From: a virus
Lineage: Duplodnaviria; Heunggongvirae; Uroviricota; Caudoviricetes
Reading direction: 5' to 3' (one strand)
Virus record (IMG/VR): IMGVR_UViG_3300014927_000119
DNA: 37,820 nt
Shown: piece by piece, positions 8,239 to 35,925 of the stretch
Layout: each line of letters begins with the position of its first letter
How positions within the stretch are numbered: the first letter of the stretch is position 1
The notes under the pieces: model-generated
The model's input: the letters and a program-made list of their open reading frames with translations, nothing else
Database searches by the model: none
What the model was told of the DNA's origin: nothing
Program-made: the position numbers and the translations under genes

Positions 8239-8523
8239 CCGTTTAACTCCGTGGTTAATGGGCGCAACTATTTTCTGTTGTGCAGAGCATGAGACGCTAT
8301 TTGACCTGGCTGGTCAGTGGATGAAACAACAGACAAAGAAAAGGCGGGTAATCCGCCAGCCTGTCATGATTTGCACTCACTCCTTTTCCAACTGACAATT
8401 TACATAGCCCAAACGCTATCAAATCTGACAGTCTGCTTTGAGCGAATAGCGGACCTTACTTTTACTGTGGTATATTAATCAAAGGAAGTTTTTACATCAT
8501 TTAACCCAGAAAGGATGTTATTT

Positions 8524-9153
8524 ATGGCACGAACATACCCGTCAGAATGGAGTAAATTTTGCAAGACCATAAATACGAATAATGGATTTTCATATTACAC
8601 CAGTAATATTAAAGCCCAAATTCTTATTGGAGACATAAATCGATTTGCTGCCAGATATGCTGTGGCAGAGGACTTCAACGGTGTTGATATTATGGGTTCT
8701 ACTATAGAAACAAGGCTTGGGTATGAAGCATTGATGAGGGCATTACTTACCTGGAGCGTCGTGGAAACATATTTTAATATATTTTCAGTCGGATTAACTG
8801 ATGTTTATACATGTTTTCCTTTTACACAAAAGGAAAAGCATGACATCAGAAGCAAACTTAATGCGATTGGTAATGACACAATTAAATTTTATACATTCAT
8901 TTCTTTGAATTGTAACGCTCGTCATAAAACAAACACAAATGACTTTATAGCGAATAATGATTTTAACCCAATAATGCTATTGTCTGCCATTCGTCATGTT
9001 TTTGGCCACGGTGATCTAAGCGCTAATGTTAATAATGTTGACCCTGAATCAATAAATAAAATCGTAAATATCTTAAAGAAAGAAATTATAACTAAAATAG
9101 ATACTTCTTTCTCTTTATTAGTTCAAATGCACCCTAATTATTCTACTGTATGA
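8524..9153 (+). CDS. Hypothetical protein, cargo ORF in the Z/fun slot (209 aa from ATG 8524; 212 aa from ATG 8515)
   Basis: AT-rich ORF on the strand opposite the late genes; AAGGA (8511-8515) 8 nt upstream of ATG 8524; TGgTATATT extended -10-like element at 8468-8476. No motif I can recognise. Confidence 0.6.
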   Translation: MARTYPSEWSKFCKTINTNNGFSYYTSNIKAQILIGDINRFAARYAVAEDFNGVDIMGSTIETRLGYEALMRALLTWSVVETYFNIFSVGLTDVYTCFPFTQKEKHDIRSKLNAIGNDTIKFYTFISLNCNARHKTNTNDFIANNDFNPIMLLSAIRHVFGHGDLSANVNNVDPESINKIVNILKKEIITKIDTSFSLLVQMHPNYSTV

Positions 9154-9298
9154 TCTTGATGATAGGTTTTTACGAAAATAATCACCTTGGGTTATTTGAT
9201 GGATACTTTTTTTAAGTAACCCTTATTAATTTACACATTATTTCTGCCATATCCTTAGCTGATACAAGGTGAACGTCCCACGTAGTATTTTACCATTA

Positions 9299-10048
9299 TT
9301 ACTGGCTATTCAATTCCCACTCAATACAGTCAGTCATCATAGGAATAAAACTTTCACAAGATGAAGAAAAAACCTCGACAAATTTCGATTTATAACTTTC
9401 TGGAACATGCCAATCCTGAGGGATGCTATCTACGATAGATTGATAATAATCAACTGGTATTTCACATATTCTATTCATCCATAATGAATACCCTTCTATA
9501 GCATGGATATTTCCACAATGATATGGCGATGATTCAGTAAATAATTGATTAGGAGTCCAGATAAGGCCGTCCTCACCCCATGTACTGCCATTATTATCTA
9601 CAAAAGCAATGCCAGCATCCATAAATAGCAATTTATCATTTAACAACTTGCAAGTGTCATTTTTTACATCGCCTATAGATAACCAATTATCAAATATTGA
9701 TTTCCCATACAGATCACTCAACTGGTCGTTACTATATTGATAATTTTCAGGCAACTCTTTTAAATCATGTATGAACTCATATGCAATAACACATGAAGTT
9801 GATATTTTTAGTTCACTTCTTACATTTTCAGAAAGTTGTACAACATGGCCTTTTGGCCAAGGCAACTCTATTTTTTCGGCTAGTTTAAAAGCCACATACT
9901 CATTAAATAATGCTTTAAATTCATGCCCAGATTCGTTTAAATATGTTTTTACAAACCACTCTCCCCCTAACTCATCAGTACCTATAAAAGGATGAGAATG
10001 ACTTATCGACTTTTCCAGCTTATCGCTAATGACATTAATTGTTATCAC
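9299..10048 (-). CDS. Hypothetical protein, cargo ORF in the Z/fun slot (249 aa, GTG start)
   Basis: AT-rich ORF; first in-frame start is GTG at 10048-10046 with AAGG 5 nt upstream; contains LGGEWFVK, GDVKND and FMDAG motifs that loosely resemble kinase-fold signatures. Confidence 0.55.
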   Translation of the reverse strand: MITINVISDKLEKSISHSHPFIGTDELGGEWFVKTYLNESGHEFKALFNEYVAFKLAEKIELPWPKGHVVQLSENVRSELKISTSCVIAYEFIHDLKELPENYQYSNDQLSDLYGKSIFDNWLSIGDVKNDTCKLLNDKLLFMDAGIAFVDNNGSTWGEDGLIWTPNQLFTESSPYHCGNIHAIEGYSLWMNRICEIPVDYYQSIVDSIPQDWHVPESYKSKFVEVFSSSCESFIPMMTDCIEWELNSQ

Positions 10049-10252
10049 GGGGACCTTAAATAATCATAAAATGATGAATGAATTATAATTGGATAACCAA
10101 GAGCAGTCCAAACAATTTCTAGCGATTAGTTGATTACCTGCATATTAGCGTTTTGTTGATTTTTGATGTCTGCTTCTGGCACAGAGCGGACTGTCAGATT
10201 AGTCTTTACTCTGTGTCATAGATATGTCAGCTCACACCAGAGCTCATACAAC

Positions 10253-22409: not shown

Positions 22410-24182
22410 ATGACCATCACCACAGACACCACTCTTTTACACGACCCGCGTCGTCAGGCGGCGCTGCTGTACTGGCAGGGGTTTTCCGTGCCGCAGATTG
22501 CCGCCATGTTGCAGATGAAACGCCCGACGGTGCAGAGCTGGAAACAGCGCGACGGCTGGGACAGCGTTGCCCCCATCAGCCGTGTCGAAATGAGCCTGGA
22601 AGCGCGGCTGACCCAGCTCATCATCAAACCGCAGAAAACCGGCGGTGACTTCAAGGAAATTGACCTGCTGGGACGCCAGATTGAACGACTGGCACGGGTA
22701 AACCGCTACAGCCAGACCGGCAACGAGGCAGACCTTAATCCGAACGTCGCTAACCGCAACAAAGGCGGGCGTCGCAAACCGAAAAAGAATTTTTTCAGTG
22801 ACGAAGCCATCGAAAAGCTGGAGCAGATTTTCTTTGAGCAGTCTTTCGACTATCAGTTGCACTGGTATCGCGCCGGGCTTGAGCACCGCATCCGCGATAT
22901 CCTGAAATCCCGCCAGATTGGCGCGACGTTTTATTTTTCCCGCGAGGCACTGCTGCGCGCCCTGAAAACCGGTCATAACCAGATTTTTCTGTCGGCCAGT
23001 AAAACGCAGGCGTATGTGTTCCGCGAATACATCATCGCCTTTGCCCGTCTGGTGGACGTTGACCTTACCGGTGACCCGATTGTCCTGGGCAATAACGGCG
23101 CAAAACTGATTTTTCTCGGCACCAACTCCAACACCGCGCAGAGCCATAACGGCGACCTGTACGTCGATGAGATTTTCTGGATCCCGAATTTTCAGGTACT
23201 GCGTAAGGTGGCATCAGGTATGGCCTCACAGAGTCACCTGCGCTCGACCTATTTCTCCACCCCGTCCACGCTGGCGCACGACGCCTACCCGTTCTGGTCA
23301 GGTGAACTGTTCAACCGGGGACGTGCCAGCGCCGCCGAACGTGTGGAAATCGACGTCAGTCATAACGCCCTTGCCAGCGGGCTTCTCTGTGCGGACGGCC
23401 AGTGGCGGCAGATTGTCACCATTGAGGACGCCCTGAAAGGCGGCTGCACACTGTTCGACATTGAGCAGCTCAAACGTGAAAACAGCGCCGACGATTTTAA
23501 AAACCTGTTCATGTGTGAATTTGTTGACGACAAGGCGTCGGTGTTCCCGTTCGAGGAGCTGCAACGCTGCATGGTCGACACGCTGGAAGAATGGGAAGAC
23601 TATGCGCCGTTTGCCGCCAATCCGTTCGGCTCACGTCCGGTATGGATTGGTTACGACCCGTCACACCGTGGCGACAGCGCCGGATGCGTGGTGCTGGCAC
23701 CGCCGGTGGTGGCCGGTGGCAAATTCAGAATACTTGAGCGTCACCAGTGGAAAGGCATGGACTTTGCCACCCAGGCGGAATCCATCCGCAAACTCACCGA
23801 AAAATACAACGTCGAATACATCGGTATTGATGCCACCGGCCTTGGTGTCGGCGTGTTCCAGCTCGTGCGCTCGTTCTATCCCGCCGCGCGCGATATCCGC
23901 TACACGCCGGAAATGAAAACCGCAATGGTGCTCAAGGCCAAAGACGTTATCCGCCGTGGCTGTCTGGAATATGACGTCAGTGCCACCGACATCACCAGCT
24001 CGTTTATGGCTATCCGCAAGACCATGACCAGCAGCGGACGCAGCGCCACCTATGAGGCCAGCCGCAGCGAGGAAGCCAGCCACGCCGACCTCGCCTGGGC
24101 GACCATGCACGCTCTGTTAAATGAGCCACTCACCGCCGGTATCAGCACCCCGCTGACATCCACCATTCTGGAGTTTTACTGA
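22410..24182 (+). CDS. P: Terminase large (ATPase) subunit P
   Basis: 590 aa from ATG 22410 (GAGG 5 nt upstream); P2 gpP is 590 aa; transcribed divergently from O. Confidence 0.9.
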   Translation: MTITTDTTLLHDPRRQAALLYWQGFSVPQIAAMLQMKRPTVQSWKQRDGWDSVAPISRVEMSLEARLTQLIIKPQKTGGDFKEIDLLGRQIERLARVNRYSQTGNEADLNPNVANRNKGGRRKPKKNFFSDEAIEKLEQIFFEQSFDYQLHWYRAGLEHRIRDILKSRQIGATFYFSREALLRALKTGHNQIFLSASKTQAYVFREYIIAFARLVDVDLTGDPIVLGNNGAKLIFLGTNSNTAQSHNGDLYVDEIFWIPNFQVLRKVASGMASQSHLRSTYFSTPSTLAHDAYPFWSGELFNRGRASAAERVEIDVSHNALASGLLCADGQWRQIVTIEDALKGGCTLFDIEQLKRENSADDFKNLFMCEFVDDKASVFPFEELQRCMVDTLEEWEDYAPFAANPFGSRPVWIGYDPSHRGDSAGCVVLAPPVVAGGKFRILERHQWKGMDFATQAESIRKLTEKYNVEYIGIDATGLGVGVFQLVRSFYPAARDIRYTPEMKTAMVLKAKDVIRRGCLEYDVSATDITSSFMAIRKTMTSSGRSATYEASRSEEASHADLAWATMHALLNEPLTAGISTPLTSTILEFY

Positions 24183-25216
24183 TGAGCAAGAAAAAAGGGA
24201 AAACACCGCAACCTGCGGCAAAAACAATGACCGCCAGCGCCCCGAAAATGGAGGCATTCACCTTTGGCGAGCCGGTGCCGGTACTCGACCGCCGTGACAT
24301 TCTGGATTACGTCGAATGCATCAGTAACGGCAGATGGTATGAGCCGCCGGTCAGCTTTACCGGTCTGGCAAAAAGTCTGCGTGCTGCCGTGCATCACAGC
24401 TCACCGATTTACGTCAAACGTAATATTCTGGCTTCAACGTTTATCCCGCACCCGTGGCTTTCCCAGCAGGATTTCAGCCGCTTTGTGCTGGATTTTCTGG
24501 TGTTCGGTAATGCGTTTCTGGAAAAGCGTTACAGCACCACCGGTAAGGTCATCAGACTGGAAACCTCACCGGCAAAATATACCCGCCGTGGCGTGGAGGA
24601 GGATGTTTACTGGTGGGTGCCGTCCTTCAACGAACCGACAGCCTTCACGCCCGGTTCCGTGTTTCACCTGCTGGAGCCGGATATTAATCAGGAGCTGTAC
24701 GGCCTGCCGGAATATCTCAGCGCCCTTAACTCTGCCTGGCTGAATGAGTCGGCCACGCTGTTCCGCCGCAAGTATTACGAAAACGGCGCACATGCCGGAT
24801 ACATCATGTACGTTACCGATGCCGTGCAGGATCGCAACGATATCGAAATGCTTCGCGAAAACATGGTGAAGTCGAAAGGCCGCAACAACTTTAAAAACCT
24901 GTTTCTCTATGCCCCGCAGGGGAAAGCCGACGGCATTAAAATTATCCCGCTCAGTGAAGTGGCGACGAAGGACGATTTTTTTAATATCAAAAAAGCCAGC
25001 GCCGCTGACCTGCTGGATGCGCACCGCATCCCCTTTCAGTTGATGGGCGGCAAGCCGGAAAACGTCGGGTCTCTGGGTGATATTGAGAAAGTGGCAAAGG
25101 TCTTTGTCCGCAATGAACTTATCCCGCTACAGGACAGGATTCGGGAAATAAACGGCTGGCTCGGTCAGGAGGTCATCCGCTTTAAAAACTACTCACTGGA
25201 CACTGACAACGGCTGA
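24182..25216 (+). CDS. Q: Portal protein Q
   Basis: 344 aa, P2 gpQ length; start overlaps the P stop. Confidence 0.92.
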   Translation: MSKKKGKTPQPAAKTMTASAPKMEAFTFGEPVPVLDRRDILDYVECISNGRWYEPPVSFTGLAKSLRAAVHHSSPIYVKRNILASTFIPHPWLSQQDFSRFVLDFLVFGNAFLEKRYSTTGKVIRLETSPAKYTRRGVEEDVYWWVPSFNEPTAFTPGSVFHLLEPDINQELYGLPEYLSALNSAWLNESATLFRRKYYENGAHAGYIMYVTDAVQDRNDIEMLRENMVKSKGRNNFKNLFLYAPQGKADGIKIIPLSEVATKDDFFNIKKASAADLLDAHRIPFQLMGGKPENVGSLGDIEKVAKVFVRNELIPLQDRIREINGWLGQEVIRFKNYSLDTDNG

Positions 25217-25385: not shown

Positions 25386-25404
25386 GTGCTTTCCCCGCCT
25401 CGCC
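25386..25404. other. cos site (19-nt cohesive-end sequence, P2 type)
   Basis: GTGCTTTCCCCGCCTCGCC is the reverse complement of the P2 cohesive end GGCGAGGCGGGGAAAGCAC as I recall it; lies next to Q as in P2. Confidence 0.8.
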
Positions 25405-25527
25405 CGCCCGCTTCATGGGTCGGTTTTAATGCAGGTGCATGACATGATTTCTCCGCGCCGACACTGGCACGGAGCACTCTTAACAGATAAACAATAATCA
25501 TGCATTCTAATGCAGCAACATAAAAGT

Positions 25528-27549
25528 TTATAATTTCCTCAACAATTTCCCATTGTTCTTATCAAAGGATATCATTGTATAGTCATACCCTTCTAATGCC
25601 TCTTTTAAGACATTTTCATCTTCTGATGTAGCAAAAATGATCTGCCCTTGTCCTTTTGTTGTTTCTGCAGCATCTTTAAGTAACTCGGCAAAACTTACTT
25701 TATTTGCTTCTTGTTGACGAGGCTCATCAAACACAATCAATCCAGGGTGATTTGTTTGAAATTTAGAACCAACAACAAATAAACTTATTAAATAACCCCA
25801 AATGATTCTTATTCCATCACTAGCTGATGTGTCAAAACCTATATCATATCCTTCCCTAGTAGGTAAGTAATTATCTTCTGATATTGACACAAGTTTAGAA
25901 TCAAAACTTGTAAAATTATATTTTTCTAATCGTGCAACGACTTCTTTATTAAGAAATTTTAACTTATCGGCATCATTACGCGACAAGAAATTATCTGGCA
26001 ATCCTTTTCTTTTCGCGATAAGCTTTTTATATCTACGGTGTAATGAATCCAACTCCAGTCTAATGTCCAATATACTTTTAATGCCATCGTTAATGGCATT
26101 AATTTTATTCTCAATGTTTATTTTACGTCTCAGAAACTCCTCCTGAACAACCATTGAGGGATATTTTGACTCCCTTAATGCATTAATATCAACTCTAATC
26201 TTGGCTATTTCCCCCTCTAAATCACTCCTCTCAACATCTTTAAGCTTTAATTGCTTTTCACTATCCGACAGAACAAACTCAAATGCTTTTACTTGCTCTT
26301 TAATAAAGTTCAAACTATCTTCATATGTCATCAGATTTTCTTGCGATGAAAAACTTAGCAAATTATCATTATAACTTGCACCACAAGTCGGACAAATATT
26401 TGACATTAAATCTGTTGACTTATACGCATCCGAAGATGATATTTTCTTTAAATCTTCATACTTCCTTTTATCTTCCAACAGATTATACAATCTGTTTTTG
26501 GTCGCCTGAATTTGATATTGAATATAACTTCTATGCTCACAAATCTCTTTAATCTTTAATTCCAGAGAGTTAATTTCATCATTTTTTTGACCTAATAACT
26601 TAACCACTGATAATTGTAAAGTTTGTTCTTCTTGCTCACCAAGAGTGTCAAACTTAATTTCTTGCAACTCTTTTTCCAGTTCATTACGAACATCAACAAT
26701 AGATCTAACGACACTACCATTTTTAATAATCAAATCTATCTTATAATGATCAAATTTTGCCACTGGTTGTTCAGGAATCCCTGTGACAACTGACGACAAT
26801 TTAGAAGCAATAACTTCTGCATTGTGTTTAATTAACTTCCAATCATGATAAATAATATCAAGTTCATTTCTTAACGAACTACGCAATAAAATATTATCAT
26901 TAACATCAAGAGACATTAAAAATTCTAGAGCTCTTTTCTTTGGCTCTTTAATTCCAAATTGTGTTGGTACAGTCGCCATAATTGACGACCATCCTTTTTT
27001 TTGCTCAACATACCATGCAGGGAAAAGTACGGATGGATAAAGAATAGTGTCCTTCCCATTATGGTTTGGAACATTTGGCAAACTCCAACCTATAAAATCA
27101 GCTAACCACTTATAGAAACCACGTTCCCTTTCAGTATCGCCCTCTCTATGTAAAAAATAAGTACCACTCTTACTTTTTACATTATTCTTCTCATCTATAT
27201 AAATAACATTATTATTATCGTGACCGATAATATTCCTTTTCAAAGATGCTTCTATTCCCTTATGATTCTTTATTTTTAGCAAAACATAAGATGATATTAC
27301 ACTAACTTCAACATTATCTTTTGTCGTTAGTGCTCTAGTCAAAGATGGAGGGAATGGGATTTTTCCAGAACCGACACCTAATGCCTTTTCCATCCCAAGT
27401 GCATATGCAATCCCATTCATGCAAGTTGATTTACCATGAGAATTCTCAACTCTTAATAAAAACAAGCCATTTGAAAAAGGTATACTAACACCATAACGCC
27501 CATCCGAAGTATTTGCTACTAACTCCAATGAAATAATTTCCAACGACAT
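25528..27549 (-). CDS. SMC/Rad50/SbcC-like ABC ATPase with a long coiled-coil insert and central CxxC hook-like motif (LmuB-like?)
   Basis: 673 aa; N-terminal SMC_N-like LFLLRVENSHGKSTCMNGIAYALG (Walker A GKST at nt 27424-27435); roughly residues 290-540 are heptad-rich in K/E/L with CPTCG at residues 386-390 (nt 26380-26394); C-terminal Walker B LIVFDEP (D at nt 25726-25728). Last gene of a 3-gene operon. Confidence 0.75.
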   Translation of the reverse strand: MSLEIISLELVANTSDGRYGVSIPFSNGLFLLRVENSHGKSTCMNGIAYALGMEKALGVGSGKIPFPPSLTRALTTKDNVEVSVISSYVLLKIKNHKGIEASLKRNIIGHDNNNVIYIDEKNNVKSKSGTYFLHREGDTERERGFYKWLADFIGWSLPNVPNHNGKDTILYPSVLFPAWYVEQKKGWSSIMATVPTQFGIKEPKKRALEFLMSLDVNDNILLRSSLRNELDIIYHDWKLIKHNAEVIASKLSSVVTGIPEQPVAKFDHYKIDLIIKNGSVVRSIVDVRNELEKELQEIKFDTLGEQEEQTLQLSVVKLLGQKNDEINSLELKIKEICEHRSYIQYQIQATKNRLYNLLEDKRKYEDLKKISSSDAYKSTDLMSNICPTCGASYNDNLLSFSSQENLMTYEDSLNFIKEQVKAFEFVLSDSEKQLKLKDVERSDLEGEIAKIRVDINALRESKYPSMVVQEEFLRRKINIENKINAINDGIKSILDIRLELDSLHRRYKKLIAKRKGLPDNFLSRNDADKLKFLNKEVVARLEKYNFTSFDSKLVSISEDNYLPTREGYDIGFDTSASDGIRIIWGYLISLFVVGSKFQTNHPGLIVFDEPRQQEANKVSFAELLKDAAETTKGQGQIIFATSEDENVLKEALEGYDYTMISFDKNNGKLLRKL

Positions 27550-27550
27550 A

Positions 27551-28027
27551 TTAACCCACCTGAAATATTTTATTAATGTTAGTTTCGGACAGTCCAGCCT
27601 TATGTTTATTTAGCACCAACCTTTCTTCTTTGAACACATCAAGAGAAAGCAATTTCTCAGCGACCTTAAGCCCCTTTTCATTTATTTTGAACGCTCGTTC
27701 ATTTCTCAAAATAAAATCCTCTGCTAATAATAGCTGTATTGCTCTATCTAAAGTTGGATCCAATCTTACTTCAGGCTTTAAACCTTCTTTGTTTAAAAGC
27801 CAGAATTCAAACATTGCTTCATTATTCTCTGACTTTAACATCCAATTAATTAAATGAAGTTTTTTTAAAGAACAGCAACCAGCTCTCCCTGTGACAAGGA
27901 ATATTATCAGCAACAAACTGCAACGCCACAATGGTCTCATATCACATGGCAAATGTTCAGGTCGTTTATTAAACGTAAACGGCCTTCCTATTATTTCATC
28001 TATCGTTATATGCATTTGCTTTTCCAT
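27551..28027 (-). CDS. Small partner protein of the 3-gene operon (158 aa; possible kleisin/LmuC-like adaptor)
   Basis: ORF separated by 1 nt from both neighbours (stop at 27551-27553, ATPase ATG at 27549); AT-rich; no motif I can recognise. Confidence 0.55.
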   Translation of the reverse strand: MEKQMHITIDEIIGRPFTFNKRPEHLPCDMRPLWRCSLLLIIFLVTGRAGCCSLKKLHLINWMLKSENNEAMFEFWLLNKEGLKPEVRLDPTLDRAIQLLLAEDFILRNERAFKINEKGLKVAEKLLSLDVFKEERLVLNKHKAGLSETNINKIFQVG

Positions 28028-28028
28028 T

Positions 28029-28949
28029 CTAAAAATCTAAAGGGCATCTTATAAGCCAATCAGAAATAACTCCCCATGTTATCTTATCCAAGTCAGCCTG
28101 TTTAAGCGTACTAACTTCCTCTTCAATACATTTCTTTAACAAAGCGATTTCATCTTTCATTATATCTGATGGTTTCGCATCTGATGAAGTAAGAAGAAAG
28201 AGACCTACCAAATTACGTTCTCTATGTTGAACACAGTTATAGATAATTTCATAGATATCAACCCAGTCTCTCTTCAAAGCATCCAGCAAGTTTTGATAAT
28301 CAAGATATTTTTGTATTAAAAACTCTCTATATAAACCCTGCCTAGATACATCATCATTTATCTTAGGTAATTTTAAATTTAGCTTATCTAAAAAAGATGT
28401 ATTTTCACTAATAAAGTTAGCAGCATTCTCAGCCGTCGCATCATTTATATTAAAGCTTAATTGATAGTTATTTTTGCGAAGAAAGAACGCTTCTTCTATA
28501 TAATTTCGATCTGTTTGCACAACTATTTGAAAATCATCAGCAACGTAAGAAATCCCTAACTCTCTTACTTTTAATGATTTTTTTGTGCAATATTGACTTA
28601 ATTTCGCCGATTTATTATATGGTGTAGCTAATATCCAGCGGCTAATTTTTAATGTGCCAAAAAGCTCCTCTAATTCTTTAATGTTATCCTGAGAAAACTT
28701 TTTTATATCAGTATAAATCTTTTTTTGTTGCGCTTTATAAAGCTTATCAATATCACTCGACTGCTCAGGCAAGTAACACTGAAAAACATGACCACTCAGA
28801 GTGTAACACTCCAGCCCAAAGTCGCCTCCATGCTCATCTGGCAAGTCACAACAGTTAGCAGGCTTATAATGTAGCCAAACAATATTTTTGAAATATGATT
28901 CCCACGCTTTTGGGTCACTATAAGGATCGTTATACATCGCCAAGCCCAT
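28029..28949 (-). CDS. First gene of the 3-gene operon (306 aa; candidate effector/sensor, LmuA-like?)
   Basis: ORF ending 1 nt before the next gene; AT-rich; acidic/Cys-containing N-terminal segment CCDLPDEHGGDFGLECY; function not assignable from sequence alone. Confidence 0.55.
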   Translation of the reverse strand: MGLAMYNDPYSDPKAWESYFKNIVWLHYKPANCCDLPDEHGGDFGLECYTLSGHVFQCYLPEQSSDIDKLYKAQQKKIYTDIKKFSQDNIKELEELFGTLKISRWILATPYNKSAKLSQYCTKKSLKVRELGISYVADDFQIVVQTDRNYIEEAFFLRKNNYQLSFNINDATAENAANFISENTSFLDKLNLKLPKINDDVSRQGLYREFLIQKYLDYQNLLDALKRDWVDIYEIIYNCVQHRERNLVGLFLLTSSDAKPSDIMKDEIALLKKCIEEEVSTLKQADLDKITWGVISDWLIRCPLDF

Positions 28950-28964
28950 AAATCAATTTTTTGT

Positions 28965-28994
28965 AGTATAACTTCTTACACATCAAAGAGTAAA
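28965..28994 (-). promoter_or_regulatory. Candidate sigma70 promoter for the 3-gene operon (TTTACT-N18-TATACT)
   Basis: On the minus strand, -35-like TTTACT (28994-28989) and -10 TATACT (28970-28965); predicted start about 9 nt before the ATG at 28949, so the mRNA would be almost leaderless. Confidence 0.35.
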
Positions 28995-29059
28995 TCCACC
29001 TAGTTTGCAAATTATCAGCCTACAAGAGTGTTTCGGTGTGCAGATTTTTCATATTTAGA

Positions 29060-31339
29060 TTACCACCTCGAAAATGCTTCCCACGCCTTCTGAACATGGT
29101 AATGAAATTCTTTTGTGCCATAGTTCACAATTGCACCACGCGCCAGCGCCTCAAGCTCCCATCGCTGCGGCCTGATACCGTTCTGAGCAAGGTCTACACG
29201 GATACGGGTAATTTGCAATCGTTCCGACCGGGTCAGCCTGGCTGATGGCGCTATTTCATGCGGTTTTAACGGGCTTCCGTTTCTTTGCTGACGATTTGGT
29301 GTTTTCAGGCCGTGTTTTAATGCACCCCTGAGCGTCCTCACGACCTCCGGGTCATTCCATTCGATAACACCGTCATCAACCAGATTTAGCACTGCTGCGG
29401 CGTGCTCAGAAGGTGTGGGAGCCGGTAACGAAGTATCACCACCGGTGAGCTTTCCACAGTTATTGACAGGACTCCGAGGCGCGGCGATGCCGCTTTTTAA
29501 AGTCAAAGGCTCAACGACCGGAACTTTCGGAACAATGCGCCAGTCCGTCGTTCTGGTGATATGAATATGACGCGCGCCGAGATGCGGCGCGTAAATGCCG
29601 ACCACTCTCTCGACTTCTTCCTCGTACTCGTTAACTTCATCCGACGGGCGACGGGCAACCCTGACAGTCTGACAATCGCGCGGGACATTTGCCCCACCCT
29701 GCGCGCTGATATACAACGCAAAATCACCACTGTCTGCGGCGGCGCGTGCAGCCTCGACGCGCTCGTCAAACTCATCAGCAATGCTGACGCCGCTAGGCAA
29801 TTTGCGTAGTTCACGGTAAGCCCCCATTGTCGGCAGGCCAACCGTTTTAAATTGTGGGATACGCCACGTTGACGCCCATGCGGTAACAGCCGCTGCAGTA
29901 TCTTTCAGCGGCCTGCCGGTATCGTTATCGAGCTGACCATCCAGTGCATAGCCGTCGATGTTTTTTGAAATGTATTTCGCGATATACCCCGCAGCACCGC
30001 CCCGGTTAAGATGTTTTGCCTGAAAACGGTTTCGCGCAGCTCCTCTTTCGTCGCCATCCTCTTTGAGCGCGTAGCGACGCATGATTTCAATAATCTGGTT
30101 ACGCTGGCGTGGATTACAAAAAAGCATCATATGCCAGTGCGGCGTTCCGTCGTGGTGTGGCTCGACGACTCGCAAACCGTAGACCTGTAAATCATTATCC
30201 TTGAATGCCGTGCGCATCAGGCTCCAGATACGGCAGAGATATCGCTGCGCATCCTTTGGATTAAATGCCTCATCATTCCAGCCGTGATTAAGCTGGACGG
30301 TTTTACTTTCGCCTTTTCCGACCTGACGTGTCGGGTGATACTTTGACGGCGCGGTCAGCGTGATAAACATCCCCACATCGCCCTCTGCGGCGGCGTAACG
30401 CTCAATACCGGCAATGGTGTTCATCAGCTCCATCCGGCGAATTTCAGGATTAGAAATACTGCCCATAACCTTACTGATAAGGTCGATGCGCTCGCCGGTT
30501 TCCCTGTTTTCAAGGTCACACGATTTAAGAAATTCCAGATTTGCCTGGCGGCGCGCACGCACATCACGAATGGCATGTTTACTGGCATAAGGAGAACGGT
30601 CTTTATTCACCTCCCCGACAGCAATCAGTAACGCCTCATGCCAGCGCATACGCTGGCCTTTAAGCTGACTAATCCACCACTCATCGTTAAACAGGCGGGC
30701 AATGGCAGAATATGCCTGCCTCGTGGTCATCTGTCCTTTACGGTATTTTTTCCAGAAAAGCGGGGAAATATTGAAAGCACGTGCAGCGCCAGCAACATGA
30801 CCATACAAATGCGCCTGCGCCTCATCTGTAAACAGCGATTCTTTCTCGCCATGTGCATCAACCCAGGCATCGCAGAGTTCCTCATACATCATGAAAAGCT
30901 GCGATGAAATACGGGCGGCAAACTTTTTCAGCTCCTTGTCATTCATCCCCGGCAGACGCGCATAATGGTCACGCTCTGCCAGAAACAGCAACGACGCGTC
31001 GGTGTTCATTTCATGGCGCTGATTCACGCGCTCAATACGCGGCCATAAACGGCGCTGAAAAGTGGATGTGAGGAAATAAAACCCGTGTAGCGGGCTTTTA
31101 TTGCGCCGGATGTAGTCATAACGTGAAGTAAACAGCGAGCGCAAAAAGTAAGGCAGGCGGTTAATCGTGGATAAAACACCTTGCACCTGACGCATCTCGT
31201 CACGTGTAAGGGGTCTTTCGCGCCCGACAGCCTCGCGTGGCGTATTCCATGCATAAGCACCGGTAAACGCCTTACCGGTGCCTGCGGCAAACGCAGACGG
31301 AGGTACGCAGGTGTATTGCTCCTGGAAAGAATGACTCAT
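29060..31339 (-). CDS. A: Replication initiation protein A (rolling-circle nickase)
   Basis: 759 aa (P2 gpA is 761 aa as I recall); last gene of the early operon; ATG overlaps the upstream stop (ATGA). Confidence 0.9.
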   Translation of the reverse strand: MSHSFQEQYTCVPPSAFAAGTGKAFTGAYAWNTPREAVGRERPLTRDEMRQVQGVLSTINRLPYFLRSLFTSRYDYIRRNKSPLHGFYFLTSTFQRRLWPRIERVNQRHEMNTDASLLFLAERDHYARLPGMNDKELKKFAARISSQLFMMYEELCDAWVDAHGEKESLFTDEAQAHLYGHVAGAARAFNISPLFWKKYRKGQMTTRQAYSAIARLFNDEWWISQLKGQRMRWHEALLIAVGEVNKDRSPYASKHAIRDVRARRQANLEFLKSCDLENRETGERIDLISKVMGSISNPEIRRMELMNTIAGIERYAAAEGDVGMFITLTAPSKYHPTRQVGKGESKTVQLNHGWNDEAFNPKDAQRYLCRIWSLMRTAFKDNDLQVYGLRVVEPHHDGTPHWHMMLFCNPRQRNQIIEIMRRYALKEDGDERGAARNRFQAKHLNRGGAAGYIAKYISKNIDGYALDGQLDNDTGRPLKDTAAAVTAWASTWRIPQFKTVGLPTMGAYRELRKLPSGVSIADEFDERVEAARAAADSGDFALYISAQGGANVPRDCQTVRVARRPSDEVNEYEEEVERVVGIYAPHLGARHIHITRTTDWRIVPKVPVVEPLTLKSGIAAPRSPVNNCGKLTGGDTSLPAPTPSEHAAAVLNLVDDGVIEWNDPEVVRTLRGALKHGLKTPNRQQRNGSPLKPHEIAPSARLTRSERLQITRIRVDLAQNGIRPQRWELEALARGAIVNYGTKEFHYHVQKAWEAFSRW

Positions 31340-32343
31340 TCACATACACCGGCATAGACACTACTGCAAACGGCTTTATCATTCGCCGAAGCCAGTAAAT
31401 CAAACTGAGTACCCCCACGCGTTGTCATTGTCCAGTCATGGTAGGTTTCAATTCCGTATGCCTCGACTGTTACAACCTCAATACGACGTTCTGCGCGTAA
31501 CGGATCATGTGTGGATGGGAAAAAAGTGGAATTTCCCCGACGGGAGCACGACGCAACCAGTCGTTCCCATTCAGCAACCCGCTTTATTTCCTCCGGCCAC
31601 CGGCGAAAAATTTCTGCCAGTTCAGATTTACGGACATGAATACATGGCATACAACCAACACGGCCACACCCCTGCTGATATAACGGATTTGGCTTAATGT
31701 CATGTCTTCTGGCTATTGCAAATACATCTTCATGCTTCCAGTGCAAAATCGGGCGGTATACATGCAATCCGGGGGTGTTGTCTGCATCCTCTTCCCAGAC
31801 AGGTAAAGCTGCGCGTGATGGCGATTCCTGAGCACGCACTCCCTGCCAGCTAATCACTTCCTCAAATTCATTGAGTAAAGGCAGGATTACCTGAGAACGC
31901 ACGGGTTCATGTTTCAGTTCAAATGTGCAAAATCTGGCTTTGGTTGATGGGAAACGCCCCTTCCACAGACACAAATCAAGAAACGGGATACCCGTTGGTT
32001 TGAGAATTTCCAGCGCACAACTGATGCGCTGGTGCGCTTCTTCTTCCGACATTCCACAATCGTTAACCAACAAATCAGGCCATTTGGTCTGGATAAACTT
32101 GCGCTTTGATTCAATCCGGCAGGAAAAATCAGCCCTGACCCTTTTAATTGGGCCAAGCCGTTTTTCCAGATAATCCAGATATTTCATTGTCTGTGGATGT
32201 TCATGTCCCGTATCAGCAAAAACCGGCAATATGGGTACATTTTCTTCAATAGCGACAAGCCACTGAGCAAGGCTGTCCTTTCCACCTGAAACAAAAATAA
32301 CATTGATGGTATTTTCAGTATGGCAACGAGCATCAGTAATCAT
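31336..32343 (-). CDS. PP-loop ATP pyrophosphatase, PAPS-reductase-like protein
   Basis: 335 aa; N-terminal VIFVSGGKDS (PP-loop motif SGGxDS); Cys cluster GCGRVGCMPC near residue 230; translationally coupled to A. Confidence 0.7.
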   Translation of the reverse strand: MITDARCHTENTINVIFVSGGKDSLAQWLVAIEENVPILPVFADTGHEHPQTMKYLDYLEKRLGPIKRVRADFSCRIESKRKFIQTKWPDLLVNDCGMSEEEAHQRISCALEILKPTGIPFLDLCLWKGRFPSTKARFCTFELKHEPVRSQVILPLLNEFEEVISWQGVRAQESPSRAALPVWEEDADNTPGLHVYRPILHWKHEDVFAIARRHDIKPNPLYQQGCGRVGCMPCIHVRKSELAEIFRRWPEEIKRVAEWERLVASCSRRGNSTFFPSTHDPLRAERRIEVVTVEAYGIETYHDWTMTTRGGTQFDLLASANDKAVCSSVYAGVCE

Positions 32344-34911: not shown

Positions 34912-35925
34912 ATGGCAATCAAAAAACTCGATGATGGTCGATATGAAGTGGACATCCGCCCTACTGGACGTAATGGAAAACGCATCCGTAGGAAGTTTGA
35001 TAAGAAAAGCGAAGCTGTCGCTTTCGAGAAATACACGTTGTACAACCACCACAATAAAGAATGGCTATCAAAACCAACAGACAAGCGACGTCTGTCGGAG
35101 CTGACACAGATCTGGTGGGATTTAAAGGGTAAACACGAAGAGCATGGGAAATCTAATCTTGGAAAAATTGAAATCTTCACAAAAATAACGAATGACCCAT
35201 GCGCATTTCAAATTACGAAATCGCTTATCAGCCAGTACTGCGCCACCCGAAGAAGTCAGGGTATTAAACCTTCGAGTATCAATCGTGATTTAACATGTAT
35301 TAGCGGCATGTTTACAGCCCTGATTGAAGCGGAGTTATTCTTTGGTGAGCACCCTATCAGAGGGACAAAAAGGCTTAAGGAGGAAAAACCAGACACAGGC
35401 TATCTCACGCAGGAAGAAATTGCCTTACTGCTTGCTGCTCTTGACGGCGACAACAAAAAGATTGCGATTCTTTGCCTGAGCACTGGAGCACGTTGGGGAG
35501 AAGCAGCTCGTTTGAAAGCAGAAAATATCATCCATAACCGCGTCACGTTTGTTAAAACGAAAACAAACAAACCACGCACCGTCCCGATCTCAGAGGCTGT
35601 TGCCAAAATGATCGCGGATAACAAACGAGGTTTTTTATTCCCTGATGCTGATTACCCTCGCTTCAGACGAACAATGAAAGCAATAAAACCGGATTTGCCA
35701 ATGGGGCAAGCCACACATGCACTAAGGCACAGCTTTGCCACTCATTTCATGATTAATGGAGGAAGTATTATCACGCTACAACGGATACTAGGTCACACGC
35801 GGATTGAGCAAACTATGGTTTACGCTCATTTTGCGCCAGAGTACCTTCAGGACGCCATTTCTCTTAATCCGCTAAGAGGTGGTACTGAGGCCGAGAGTGT
35901 CCACACAGTGTCCACAGTAGAGTAA
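34912..35925 (+). CDS. int: Tyrosine integrase
   Basis: 337 aa (P2 Int is 337 aa); C-terminal HxxRHxxxxxxxxxGxxxxxxxxxLGH...Y pattern (ALRHSFATHF...LGHTRIEQTMVYAHF); adjacent to attR. Confidence 0.92.
   Translation: MAIKKLDDGRYEVDIRPTGRNGKRIRRKFDKKSEAVAFEKYTLYNHHNKEWLSKPTDKRRLSELTQIWWDLKGKHEEHGKSNLGKIEIFTKITNDPCAFQITKSLISQYCATRRSQGIKPSSINRDLTCISGMFTALIEAELFFGEHPIRGTKRLKEEKPDTGYLTQEEIALLLAALDGDNKKIAILCLSTGARWGEAARLKAENIIHNRVTFVKTKTNKPRTVPISEAVAKMIADNKRGFLFPDADYPRFRRTMKAIKPDLPMGQATHALRHSFATHFMINGGSIITLQRILGHTRIEQTMVYAHFAPEYLQDAISLNPLRGGTEAESVHTVSTVE

What the first reader, a model, noticed from the sequence alone, without database searches (positions are those of the whole stretch)
25528..28994. 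Three-gene AT-rich operon ending in an SMC/Rad50-like ATPase fills the P2 tin/old cargo slot: candidate anti-phage defence system
Between cos and gene A, where P2 carries orf91-tin-old, this prophage has a minus-strand operon of 306-aa, 158-aa and 673-aa proteins separated by 1 nt each. Its base composition is visibly more AT-rich than the phage backbone. The 673-aa protein has an SMC_N-like head (Walker A GKST), a roughly 250-residue heptad-rich region with a central CPTCG (Rad50/SbcC zinc-hook-like) and a C-terminal Walker B (LIVFDEP). The order effector-like protein, small protein, SMC-like ATPase matches Lamassu (LmuA-LmuC-LmuB / DdmABC) architecture, but the first two proteins show no motif I can assign, so it may be a divergent or undescribed system. 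This slot is a known defence-gene hotspot in P2-like phages.
Basis: partly seen in the sequence, partly recalled or inferred. Interest (0 to 1): 0.9.

Follow-up and report, generated by a model that had tools for sequence, protein, structure and literature searches.

The report
Lamassu defence cassette in P2 prophage
The three genes are a divergent but recognisable copy of the known Lamassu anti-phage system (nuclease LmuA, small LmuC, SMC-like LmuB) in the usual defence slot of a P2-like prophage; the cassette was already listed, unnamed and untested, in a 2022 survey, so it is a solid but ordinary find.

Summary
Three tightly packed minus-strand genes (306/158/673 aa) form a 3.5-kb island of 31–35% GC between P2 cos and gene A.

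The Lamassu reading is also confirmed. PADLOC's LmuA, LmuC and LmuB models match all three proteins over nearly their full length. The experimentally validated Lamassu-Mrr proteins of E. coli SE15 hit the same LmuA and LmuC models, so this is a distant relative of the Mrr branch.

- **LmuA:** predicted PD-(D/E)xK restriction-endonuclease-fold head plus a helical C-terminal domain; the best whole-chain structural matches are solved LmuA chains.
- **LmuC:** predicted winged-helix protein.
- **LmuB:** Walker A (K40), Q-loop, invariant CPTC zinc hook, SASDG signature and canonical DE Walker B.

The "undescribed system" hedge is not supported. The exact cassette is system no. 51 (79 occurrences) in Table S5B of Rousset et al. 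2022, listed but not cloned, and 32 of 5,426 complete E. coli genomes carry it.

One feature stands out. The canonical Mrr QxK lysine is Tyr or Phe in all 53 sampled family members, while Lys77 is invariant.

Verdict: new member of a known kind, interest about 0.3.

The parts
28029..28949 (-). lmuA: effector, 306 aa from the first ATG; probably 302 aa starting at 28937. N-terminal PD-(D/E)xK (Mrr-like) nuclease-fold domain (about residues 10-150) plus a helical C-terminal domain (about 170-306) ending in the conserved DWLIRCPLDF.
28773..28823 (-). Codons for the LmuA catalytic core, D43-F-G45-L-E47 ... Q57-C58-Y59. This is the Mrr 'GDxGxD...QxK' motif with Tyr in place of the lysine.
   Evidence: In 53 diverse homologues D43 and Q57 are invariant, position 47 is E or D in all 53, and position 59 is Y (49) or F (4), never K. 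K77 is invariant, D81 is 52/53 and K84 is 51/53. A local alignment places HVFQCY on SE15 HLYQCK.
27551..28027 (-). lmuC: middle component, 158 aa (or 154 aa starting at 28015); predicted winged-helix protein.
   Evidence: PADLOC LmuC PDLC03871, 2.5e-23, profile positions 1-148 of 156. The SE15 'wHTH' LmuC hits the same model at 191 bits. AF2 pLDDT 85.6, pTM 0.82. Foldseek gives only weak winged-helix matches (MarR/DtxR/TubR, MUS81-WH, MAGE-NSE1; E > 0.1) and no solved LmuC among the top 50 hits listed.
25528..27549 (-). lmuB: SMC/Rad50-like ABC ATPase, 673 aa, with a split head, two coiled-coil arms and a zinc hook.
   Evidence: PADLOC LmuB PDLC03863, 1.1e-98, profile positions 1-604 of 610, plus nine further LmuB models. 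hhalign against the Mrr-type LmuB of B. cereus 172560W: probability 95.5%, E 1.5e-8, aligned through the CxxC. The profile also reaches Rad50/SMC heads and the Rad50 hook 1l8d. Motif conservation.
27430..27432 (-). LmuB Walker A lysine K40 (ENSHGKST).
   Evidence: GKS is invariant in 25 homologues.
26383..26394 (-). LmuB zinc hook C386-P-T-C389.
   Evidence: C386, P387 and C389 are invariant in 25 homologues. The profile matches Rad50 hook structures 1l8d and 6zff.
25723..25728 (-). LmuB Walker B D608-E609 (LIVFDEP).
   Evidence: D608, E609 and P610 are invariant. hhhhDE fits the 'short Lamassu' pattern hhhhD[Q/S/T/E] of Haudiquet et al..
28965..28994 (-). Promoter-like site TTTACT-18-TATACT upstream of lmuA.
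   Evidence: Consensus scan, 9 of 12 matches. This is a pattern match only; such matches are common in AT-rich DNA.
25450..29059 (.). AT-rich cargo island (GC 0.31-0.35) bounded by backbone sequence shared with other P2-like phages.
   Evidence: Composition profile. Other P2-like phages match only window 25400-25449. In E. coli, 157 genomes match part of 25400-29060, but only 32 hold the cassette itself.
25388..25406 (.). P2 cos core (gtgctttccccgcctcgcc, the reverse complement of GGCGAGGCGGGGAAAGCAC); one boundary of the hotspot.
   Evidence: Read directly from the sequence. The identity of the P2 cos sequence is from my own knowledge.

Best explanation
This is a Lamassu-family anti-phage (and probably anti-plasmid) system carried as moron cargo in the cos-proximal defence hotspot of a P2-like prophage. 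It belongs to the short, zinc-hook-bearing type and is a distant relative of the Mrr-nuclease branch. The mechanism below is inferred by homology from the Cap4-type Lamassu structures. Two LmuB protomers, joined at the CPTC zinc hook, fold back and, together with one winged-helix LmuC, hold one LmuA monomer by its helical C-terminal domain, which keeps the nuclease inert. When phage replication produces free DNA ends, the LmuB heads and LmuC bind them, ATP binding and hydrolysis (K40, D608/E609) rearranges the complex, and LmuA is released. Freed LmuA oligomerises through its C-terminal domain. That pairs the PD-(D/E)xK heads into an active DNase which cuts DNA indiscriminately, killing or arresting the cell before the phage completes its cycle (abortive infection). 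Shown here: the gene order, family assignment, folds, motifs, conservation and mobile context. Inferred: complex stoichiometry, the trigger, nuclease activity and the phenotype.
Against: No experiment exists for this cassette or for its LmuA sub-family; Rousset et al. listed it but did not clone it. Scores against the Mrr-subtype models are modest (102 and 81 bits, against 352 and 191 for validated members). Direct comparison with SE15 LmuA and LmuC is not significant. The LmuB profile does not reach any solved LmuB by sequence, and the LmuC model does not match a solved LmuC. The canonical Mrr catalytic lysine is absent family-wide, so nuclease activity is assumed rather than shown. The structural mechanism was worked out on Cap4-type systems, whose LmuA C-terminal domain and LmuC are of different types.
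Confidence: 0.82

Rival explanations
1. It is a Lamassu-type sensor whose LmuA head is no longer a conventional nuclease. Loss of the QxK lysine would mean either a re-wired active site, with the invariant K77 on the next helix supplying the lysine, or a non-cleaving output such as DNA binding or blocking.
For: Position 59 is Y or F in 53 of 53 members, never K. Phe cannot act as a catalytic residue, so the position looks structural. K77 is invariant, D81 is 52/53 and K84 is 51/53. Haudiquet et al. describe a short-Lamassu clade that seems to have lost the effector domain.
Against: D43, E/D47 and Q57, the metal-binding part of the motif, are strictly conserved, and the fold is intact at pLDDT above 90. 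From my own knowledge, PD-(D/E)xK enzymes without the canonical lysine exist, for example BamHI.
Confidence: 0.2
2. Its main role is competition between mobile elements, such as plasmid elimination or exclusion of rival P2-like phages and P4 satellites, rather than defence against virulent phages.
For: The V. cholerae Lamassu DdmABC was first identified through plasmid restriction. P2-hotspot systems can target P2 relatives. The cassette travels on prophages, conjugative-element-like regions and plasmids.
Against: This is not exclusive with anti-phage defence. All tested Lamassu family members that worked protected against phages.
Confidence: 0.25
3. It is a housekeeping SbcCD/Rad50-Mre11-like DNA-repair module.
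For: LmuB is Rad50/SbcC-like: weak profile hits to Rad50 heads and hook. Lamassu is thought to derive from SbcCD.
Against: There is no Mre11/SbcD phosphoesterase partner. The cassette is AT-rich cargo in a prophage hotspot, is present in only 32 of 5,426 E. coli genomes, is mobile across element types, and best matches defence-specific LmuA/B/C models.
Confidence: 0.02
4. It is an undescribed defence system that only resembles Lamassu in outline.
For: There are no Pfam or NCBIfam hits for LmuA or LmuC. RefSeq calls all three proteins hypothetical.
Against: Full-length hits to three Lamassu models, shared with validated Lamassu-Mrr proteins. All 53 sampled LmuA relatives hit the same LmuA model. 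Structural match to solved LmuA.
Confidence: 0.03

Closest known systems
Lamassu-Mrr (Lamassu-Fam with Mrr-nuclease LmuA), validated from E. coli O150:H5 SE15 (Millman et al. 2022, construct SG108)
   Same: Same gene order lmuA-lmuC-lmuB. Its LmuA and LmuC hit the same PADLOC models as ours (PDLC03852 and PDLC03871). LmuC is a winged helix in both. The LmuA head carries the GDxGx(D/E)...QC motif. The Mrr-type LmuB (shown for the B. cereus 172560W construct SG107) carries a CxxC hook that aligns with ours.
   Different: LmuA is 302-306 aa here against 379 aa. Scores are 102 and 81 bits against 352 and 191. Direct profile-to-sequence comparison is not significant for LmuA or LmuC. The QxK lysine is Tyr or Phe in this whole sub-family. 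The SE15 genome does not carry this cassette.
Cap4-type Lamassu: V. cholerae DdmABC and Salmonella enterica LmuACB (cryo-EM structures 9nxx, 9ny1, 9ny5, 9hr5, 9hqx)
   Same: Three-component architecture. The LmuA model's best Foldseek hits are these LmuA chains. This is the presumed mechanistic template: LmuA sequestered by LmuB2-LmuC, DNA-end sensing, LmuA tetramerisation.
   Different: The effector head is Cap4/DUF4297 there and Mrr-like here. V. cholerae LmuB has no zinc hook and a deviant Walker B, while ours has CPTC and a canonical DE. Its LmuC is a different type (MC3), and our LmuC model does not match it. There is no sequence-level hit between our LmuB profile and the solved LmuB chains.
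Rousset et al. 2022, P2-hotspot system no. 51 ('AAA_13/DUF3732', Table S5B)
   Same: The three proteins listed there match ours, apart from the shorter starts, and the cassette is at the same gpA-gpQ hotspot; 79 occurrences in their E. coli set.
   Different: It was only catalogued there: not named Lamassu and not cloned. LmuB is given from an internal Met (M45), so it lacks the Walker A.
Rad50/SbcC-Mre11/SbcD
   Same: ABC head, coiled coil and CxxC zinc hook; weak profile matches to Rad50 heads and hook.
   Different: Much shorter coiled coil, no Mre11-type nuclease, and a mobile, sporadic distribution.
P4-hotspot 'Syst.5 LmuBC_SMEK Lamassu' (Moura de Sousa et al. 2026 preprint)
   Same: A Lamassu variant carried next to cos on a P2/P4-family element.
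   Different: By reading its sequence, the effector is SMEK-type, LmuC is about 80 aa and the host element is P4. The difference was judged by eye and not scored formally.

Membership tests
Lamassu family (Lamassu-Fam / ABC-3C) | LmuB: SMC/Rad50-like ABC ATPase with a split head and intervening coiled coil | tested here: met
   PADLOC LmuB 1.1e-98 over the full length, plus nine other LmuB models. Walker A, Q-loop, signature and Walker B conserved. Coiled-coil and Rad50 head/hook profile matches. hhalign 95.5% to a Mrr-type LmuB.
Lamassu family (Lamassu-Fam / ABC-3C) | LmuA: N-terminal effector domain plus a C-terminal domain of the LmuA type | tested here: met
   PADLOC LmuA 1.1e-29, profile positions 19-333 of 336. 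Best Foldseek hits are solved LmuA chains, 9nxx_D at probability 0.99. All 53 sampled relatives hit the same model.
Lamassu family (Lamassu-Fam / ABC-3C) | LmuC: small middle component encoded between lmuA and lmuB | tested here: met
   PADLOC LmuC 2.5e-23, profile positions 1-148 of 156. Gene order A-C-B with 1-nt gaps. The order is conserved in three distant genomes.
Lamassu family (Lamassu-Fam / ABC-3C) | Protects against phage or plasmid, dependent on the LmuB ATPase, the LmuA effector and LmuC | not testable with these tools
   Needs cloning and plaque assays. Rousset et al. listed the cassette but did not clone it.
Lamassu-Mrr subtype | LmuA and LmuC match the Mrr-subtype profiles | tested here: met
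   Same models as validated SE15 and B. cereus Mrr-type proteins, but at 102 and 81 bits against 352-375 and 160-191 bits.
Lamassu-Mrr subtype | Mrr catalytic motif D...(D/E)...QxK with the lysine present | tested here: not met
   D43, E47 and Q57 are present, but the lysine position is Y59. It is Y (49) or F (4) in 53 relatives. No member reaches any Pfam nuclease family, including Mrr_cat.
Lamassu-Mrr subtype | Direct sequence homology of LmuA and LmuC to validated Mrr-type proteins | tested here: not met
   hhalign and hmmsearch of our family profiles against SE15 and B. cereus LmuA, and hhalign against SE15 LmuC, are not significant. The link is seen only from the PADLOC-profile side.
Short Lamassu (Haudiquet et al. 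2025) | LmuB about 600 aa; Walker B hhhhD[Q/S/T/E]; zero, one or two CxxC hooks | tested here: met
   673 aa, LIVFDE, one invariant CPTC. The length lies between the published means of 600 and 800 aa. Placement in their LmuB tree was not tested.
SbcCD / Rad50-Mre11 repair complex | Adjacent Mre11/SbcD-type phosphoesterase nuclease | tested here: not met
   No metallophosphatase hit for either upstream protein in Pfam or NCBIfam.

The most novel reading that the evidence does not exclude
The LmuA sub-family of about 300 aa (921 clusters at 50% identity) is a distinct and so far untested Lamassu clade. Its restriction-endonuclease-fold head has lost the canonical QxK lysine in every sampled member and may use the invariant K77 on the following helix instead. 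Alternatively it may not cleave DNA at all. Either way its output, and possibly its trigger, would differ from the Mrr-type and Cap4-type systems studied so far.
Probability: 0.25. Interest if true: 0.45.

Novelty: new member of a known kind. Interest (0 to 1): 0.3.

Why it matters
The result gives a name and a testable mechanism to a cassette that RefSeq annotates as three hypothetical proteins. Its LmuC relatives are mislabelled "serine/threonine protein kinase", and the 2022 P2-hotspot survey listed the cassette only by weak domain labels. It extends the Mrr-like Lamassu branch to a large, widespread sub-family with an altered catalytic motif. That sub-family would be a useful comparison for structure-function work, because it combines a zinc hook, a canonical Walker B and a different LmuC type from the solved complexes. 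It does not open a new kind of biology.

Tried and rejected
- **Pfam and NCBIfam on the three proteins:** nothing above threshold. PHROGs gave only "unknown function" families that match the proteins end to end.
- **Sequence searches against the PDB:** single sequences and family profiles reached no LmuA or LmuB chain, only Rad50/SMC Walker-A segments, the Rad50 hook and generic coiled coils.
- **Is it the validated SE15 Lamassu-Mrr?** No. SE15 is not among the 32 carrier genomes, and a sensitive DNA search found no diverged E. coli copies.
- **Direct profile comparison with SE15 LmuA and LmuC:** not significant.
- **Is it Rousset's validated "three genes with no clear domain" system that protects against P1?** No. 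None of the three peptides I searched, one from each of our proteins, appears in their cloned-construct table, and there are no non-Lamassu PADLOC hits.
- **Is it the P4 "LmuBC_SMEK" variant?** No. It has a different effector and a much shorter LmuC. This was judged by reading the sequence and not scored.
- **LmuC fold against solved LmuC:** no match. The literature describes eight LmuC types, which is consistent with that result.
- **Krishnan et al. 2020 (ABC-3C classification):** the paper is not held, so the MC and CTD types could not be assigned.
- **Millman's per-genome system table:** it is truncated and does not reach the carrier strains.
- **Distance of K77 from the active site:** not measurable, because model coordinates are not exposed.
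Full report
**Observation**

Three minus-strand ORFs lie at 28949..28029 (306 aa), 28027..27551 (158 aa) and 27549..25528 (673 aa), with one nucleotide between consecutive longest ORFs. GC is 0.31-0.35 across 25501-29000, against about 0.55 on the cos/portal side and 0.51-0.56 on the gene A side.

The island lies between portal gene Q (24182..25216, Phage_portal) with the P2 cos core at about 25388-25406, and replication gene A (29060..31339, Phage_GPA, 1.4e-123). The whole window is a P2-like prophage inserted between a peptidase-U32 gene and yegS, with an intact integrase.

RefSeq annotation of a 100%-identical copy in E. coli O145:H28 RM12761 calls all three genes "hypothetical protein". 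It starts LmuA and LmuC at their second Met, giving 302 and 154 aa, which agrees with most homologues.

**Family assignment**

Pfam, NCBIfam and the PDB sequence library gave nothing usable. PADLOC gave one clean answer:

| Protein | PADLOC model | E-value | Profile positions matched |
|---|---|---|---|
| First (306 aa) | LmuA, PDLC03852 | 1.1e-29 | 19-333 of 336 |
| Second (158 aa) | LmuC, PDLC03871 | 2.5e-23 | 1-148 of 156 |
| Third (673 aa) | LmuB, PDLC03863 (plus nine other LmuB models) | 1.1e-98 | 1-604 of 610 |

To learn which subtype those models stand for, I took the protein sequences of the experimentally tested Lamassu-Mrr constructs from the Millman et al. supplement (SG108 from E. 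coli SE15, protective; SG107 from B. cereus 172560W, not protective) and scanned them against PADLOC. They hit the same LmuA and LmuC models at 352-375 and 160-191 bits. Our system is therefore a relative of the Mrr branch, but a distant one, at 102 and 81 bits.

Direct comparison of our family profiles with SE15 LmuA and LmuC is not significant. The LmuB profile aligns with the first 399 residues of the B. cereus Mrr-type LmuB at 95.5% probability, E 1.5e-8, from the head through the CxxC hook.

**Anatomy**

- **LmuA.** The AF2 model has mean pLDDT 84.8, and most of residues 10-150 are above 90. It has an alpha/beta head and a helical C-terminal half.
  - Foldseek's best whole-chain matches are the solved LmuA structures (9nxx_D E 5.6e-4, probability 0.99; then 9hr5, 9ny1, 9hqx, 9ux7).
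- **LmuC.** The model (pLDDT 85.6, pTM 0.82) is a winged-helix protein. Its matches are weak (MarR/DtxR/TubR, MUS81-WH, MAGE-NSE1) and none of the top 50 listed is a solved LmuC. The literature groups LmuC into eight types, and Millman et al. annotate the Mrr-type LmuC as "wHTH".
- **LmuB.** It has Walker A ENSHGKST (K40), a Q-loop candidate E182-Q183, an invariant C386-P-x-C389 hook, the signature SASDG, Walker B LIVFDE (D608/E609) and no H-loop histidine (ATSE instead). By the criteria of Haudiquet et al. (Walker B hhhhD[Q/S/T/E], length, hook count) it is a "short" Lamassu with one zinc hook.

**The one unusual feature**

The Mrr-type LmuA motif reads GGAGDKGRD...YQCK. Ours reads GGDFGLE...FQCY, and a local alignment anchors HVFQCY on SE15's HLYQCK.

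In 53 relatives spanning 22-55% identity:
- D43, Q57 and K77 are invariant.
- Position 47 is E or D in all 53.
- Position 59 is Tyr (49) or Phe (4), never Lys.
- D81 is conserved in 52 of 53 and K84 in 51 of 53.

The canonical lysine is therefore systematically absent. I infer that the lysine role has moved to K77 on the following helix. None of the 53 relatives reaches any Pfam nuclease family, and all 53 hit PADLOC's LmuA model.

**Distribution**

- An exhaustive profile search found 921 clusters at 50% identity (483 at E <= 1e-30). The 150 best-scoring hits listed are nearly all about 300 aa and match over the full length.
- The three-gene order and sizes are kept in a cyanobacterium (304/161/673 aa, next to ParAB, a NERD-UvrD helicase and an integrase fragment), in a Salmonella region with TraG and ArdC, and beside integrases in P. 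aeruginosa.
- Relatives sit on 29 plasmids, from Pantoea to Clostridium botulinum, but on none of 50,697 isolated phage records.
- In E. coli the cassette is at least 99.4% identical in 32 of 5,426 complete genomes. In all 32 a query that included the P2 flanks matched over at least 80% of its length, so it sits at the same hotspot. A further 125 genomes match only part of that query, consistent with the same flanks carrying other cargo.

**Prior art**

The slot between gpA and the portal is the established main P2 defence hotspot. The exact cassette is in Table S5B of Rousset et al. 2022 as system no. 51 ("AAA_13/DUF3732", 79 occurrences), with the same three protein sequences apart from shorter starts. 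Table S5A lists it as three hypotheticals. The peptides I searched, one from each of the three proteins, are absent from their cloned-construct table, so the cassette was not tested. Their validated three-gene system of unknown domains is a different cassette.

Millman et al. note that Lamassu-family members occur in those prophage hotspots. The P4 "LmuBC_SMEK" variant tested in the 2026 preprint is a different system. No paper in the library cites the three RefSeq accessions in its main text.

**Mechanism**

The mechanism is inferred from the Cap4-type structures. An LmuB dimer with LmuC holds one LmuA by its C-terminal domain. Binding of DNA ends, together with the ATPase cycle, releases LmuA. 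LmuA then oligomerises, which activates the nuclease and aborts the infection. A FokI/Mrr-like head that needs pairing to cut both strands fits that logic. Nothing about stoichiometry, trigger or activity is shown here.

**Verdict**

The suggestion that the system might be undescribed is not. This is a new, divergent member of a known kind, catalogued earlier without a name and never tested. Interest is about 0.3. The altered catalytic motif is the only part worth a specialist's attention.

Noticed in passing
window 8450-10150: A second AT-rich island (GC 0.31-0.34) lies between the tail sheath gene and the tail-fibre assembly gene, the P2 Z/fun slot. It holds two convergent ORFs: 8515..9153 + (212 aa, no hit in Pfam, NCBIfam, PHROGs or PADLOC) and 9299..10048 - (249 aa, Pfam HipA_2 'HipA-like kinase' 1.6e-7, above the cut-off; phrog_3162, function unknown). 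None of 5,426 complete E. coli genomes holds this island, only an 88-nt flank, and the kinase-like ORF has no tblastn match in 50,697 phage records. This is a candidate unassigned defence or toxin pair.
   Followed up: partly
window 8450-10150 compared with L001 3342-4341: The Lamassu island is 100% identical to the copy in E. coli O145:H28 RM12761. The cargo at the second hotspot differs, though: RM12761 has a hypothetical protein plus an LPO_1073/Vpar_1526 family protein there. The two hotspots of one prophage lineage have therefore been swapped independently.
   Followed up: partly
window 31336-32343 (-): A 335-aa PAPS-reductase-domain protein (Pfam 5.4e-35; below every NCBIfam equivalog cut-off; weak DndC-like hit at 1e-4) overlaps the start of gene A by 4 nt. 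RM12761 has small DUF5405 and TraR genes at this position instead. It may be a DNA-modification or accessory gene in the early region.
   Followed up: partly
window 27551-28027 (LmuC) and its homologues P0235-P0248: NCBI names many LmuC homologues 'serine/threonine protein kinase'. Pfam finds no kinase signal, and the predicted fold is a winged helix. This looks like a propagated misannotation.
   Followed up: partly
window 25528-27549 (LmuB): Table S5B of Rousset et al. gives this protein from an internal Met (M45, MNGIAYALG...), which removes the Walker A. That probably explains why the cassette was labelled AAA_13/DUF3732 rather than SMC. The same table flags '1 TM in protein 2', which corresponds to the hydrophobic helix at residues 28-46 of LmuC. 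In the AF2 model that helix is part of a compact globular fold (pTM 0.82), so I read it as a buried core helix rather than a membrane span.
   Followed up: partly
window 25620-25650 (LmuB residues 634-643): The position where Rad50/SMC proteins carry the H-loop histidine reads IIFATSE, with conserved T-S-E and no histidine, in nearly all 25 homologues. I did not check whether other LmuB clades share this.
   Followed up: no
L001 28372-31835: In RM12761 the integrase of the same prophage is split by an ISEc8 (IS66-family) insertion. In this window the integrase (34912..35925) is intact.
   Followed up: no
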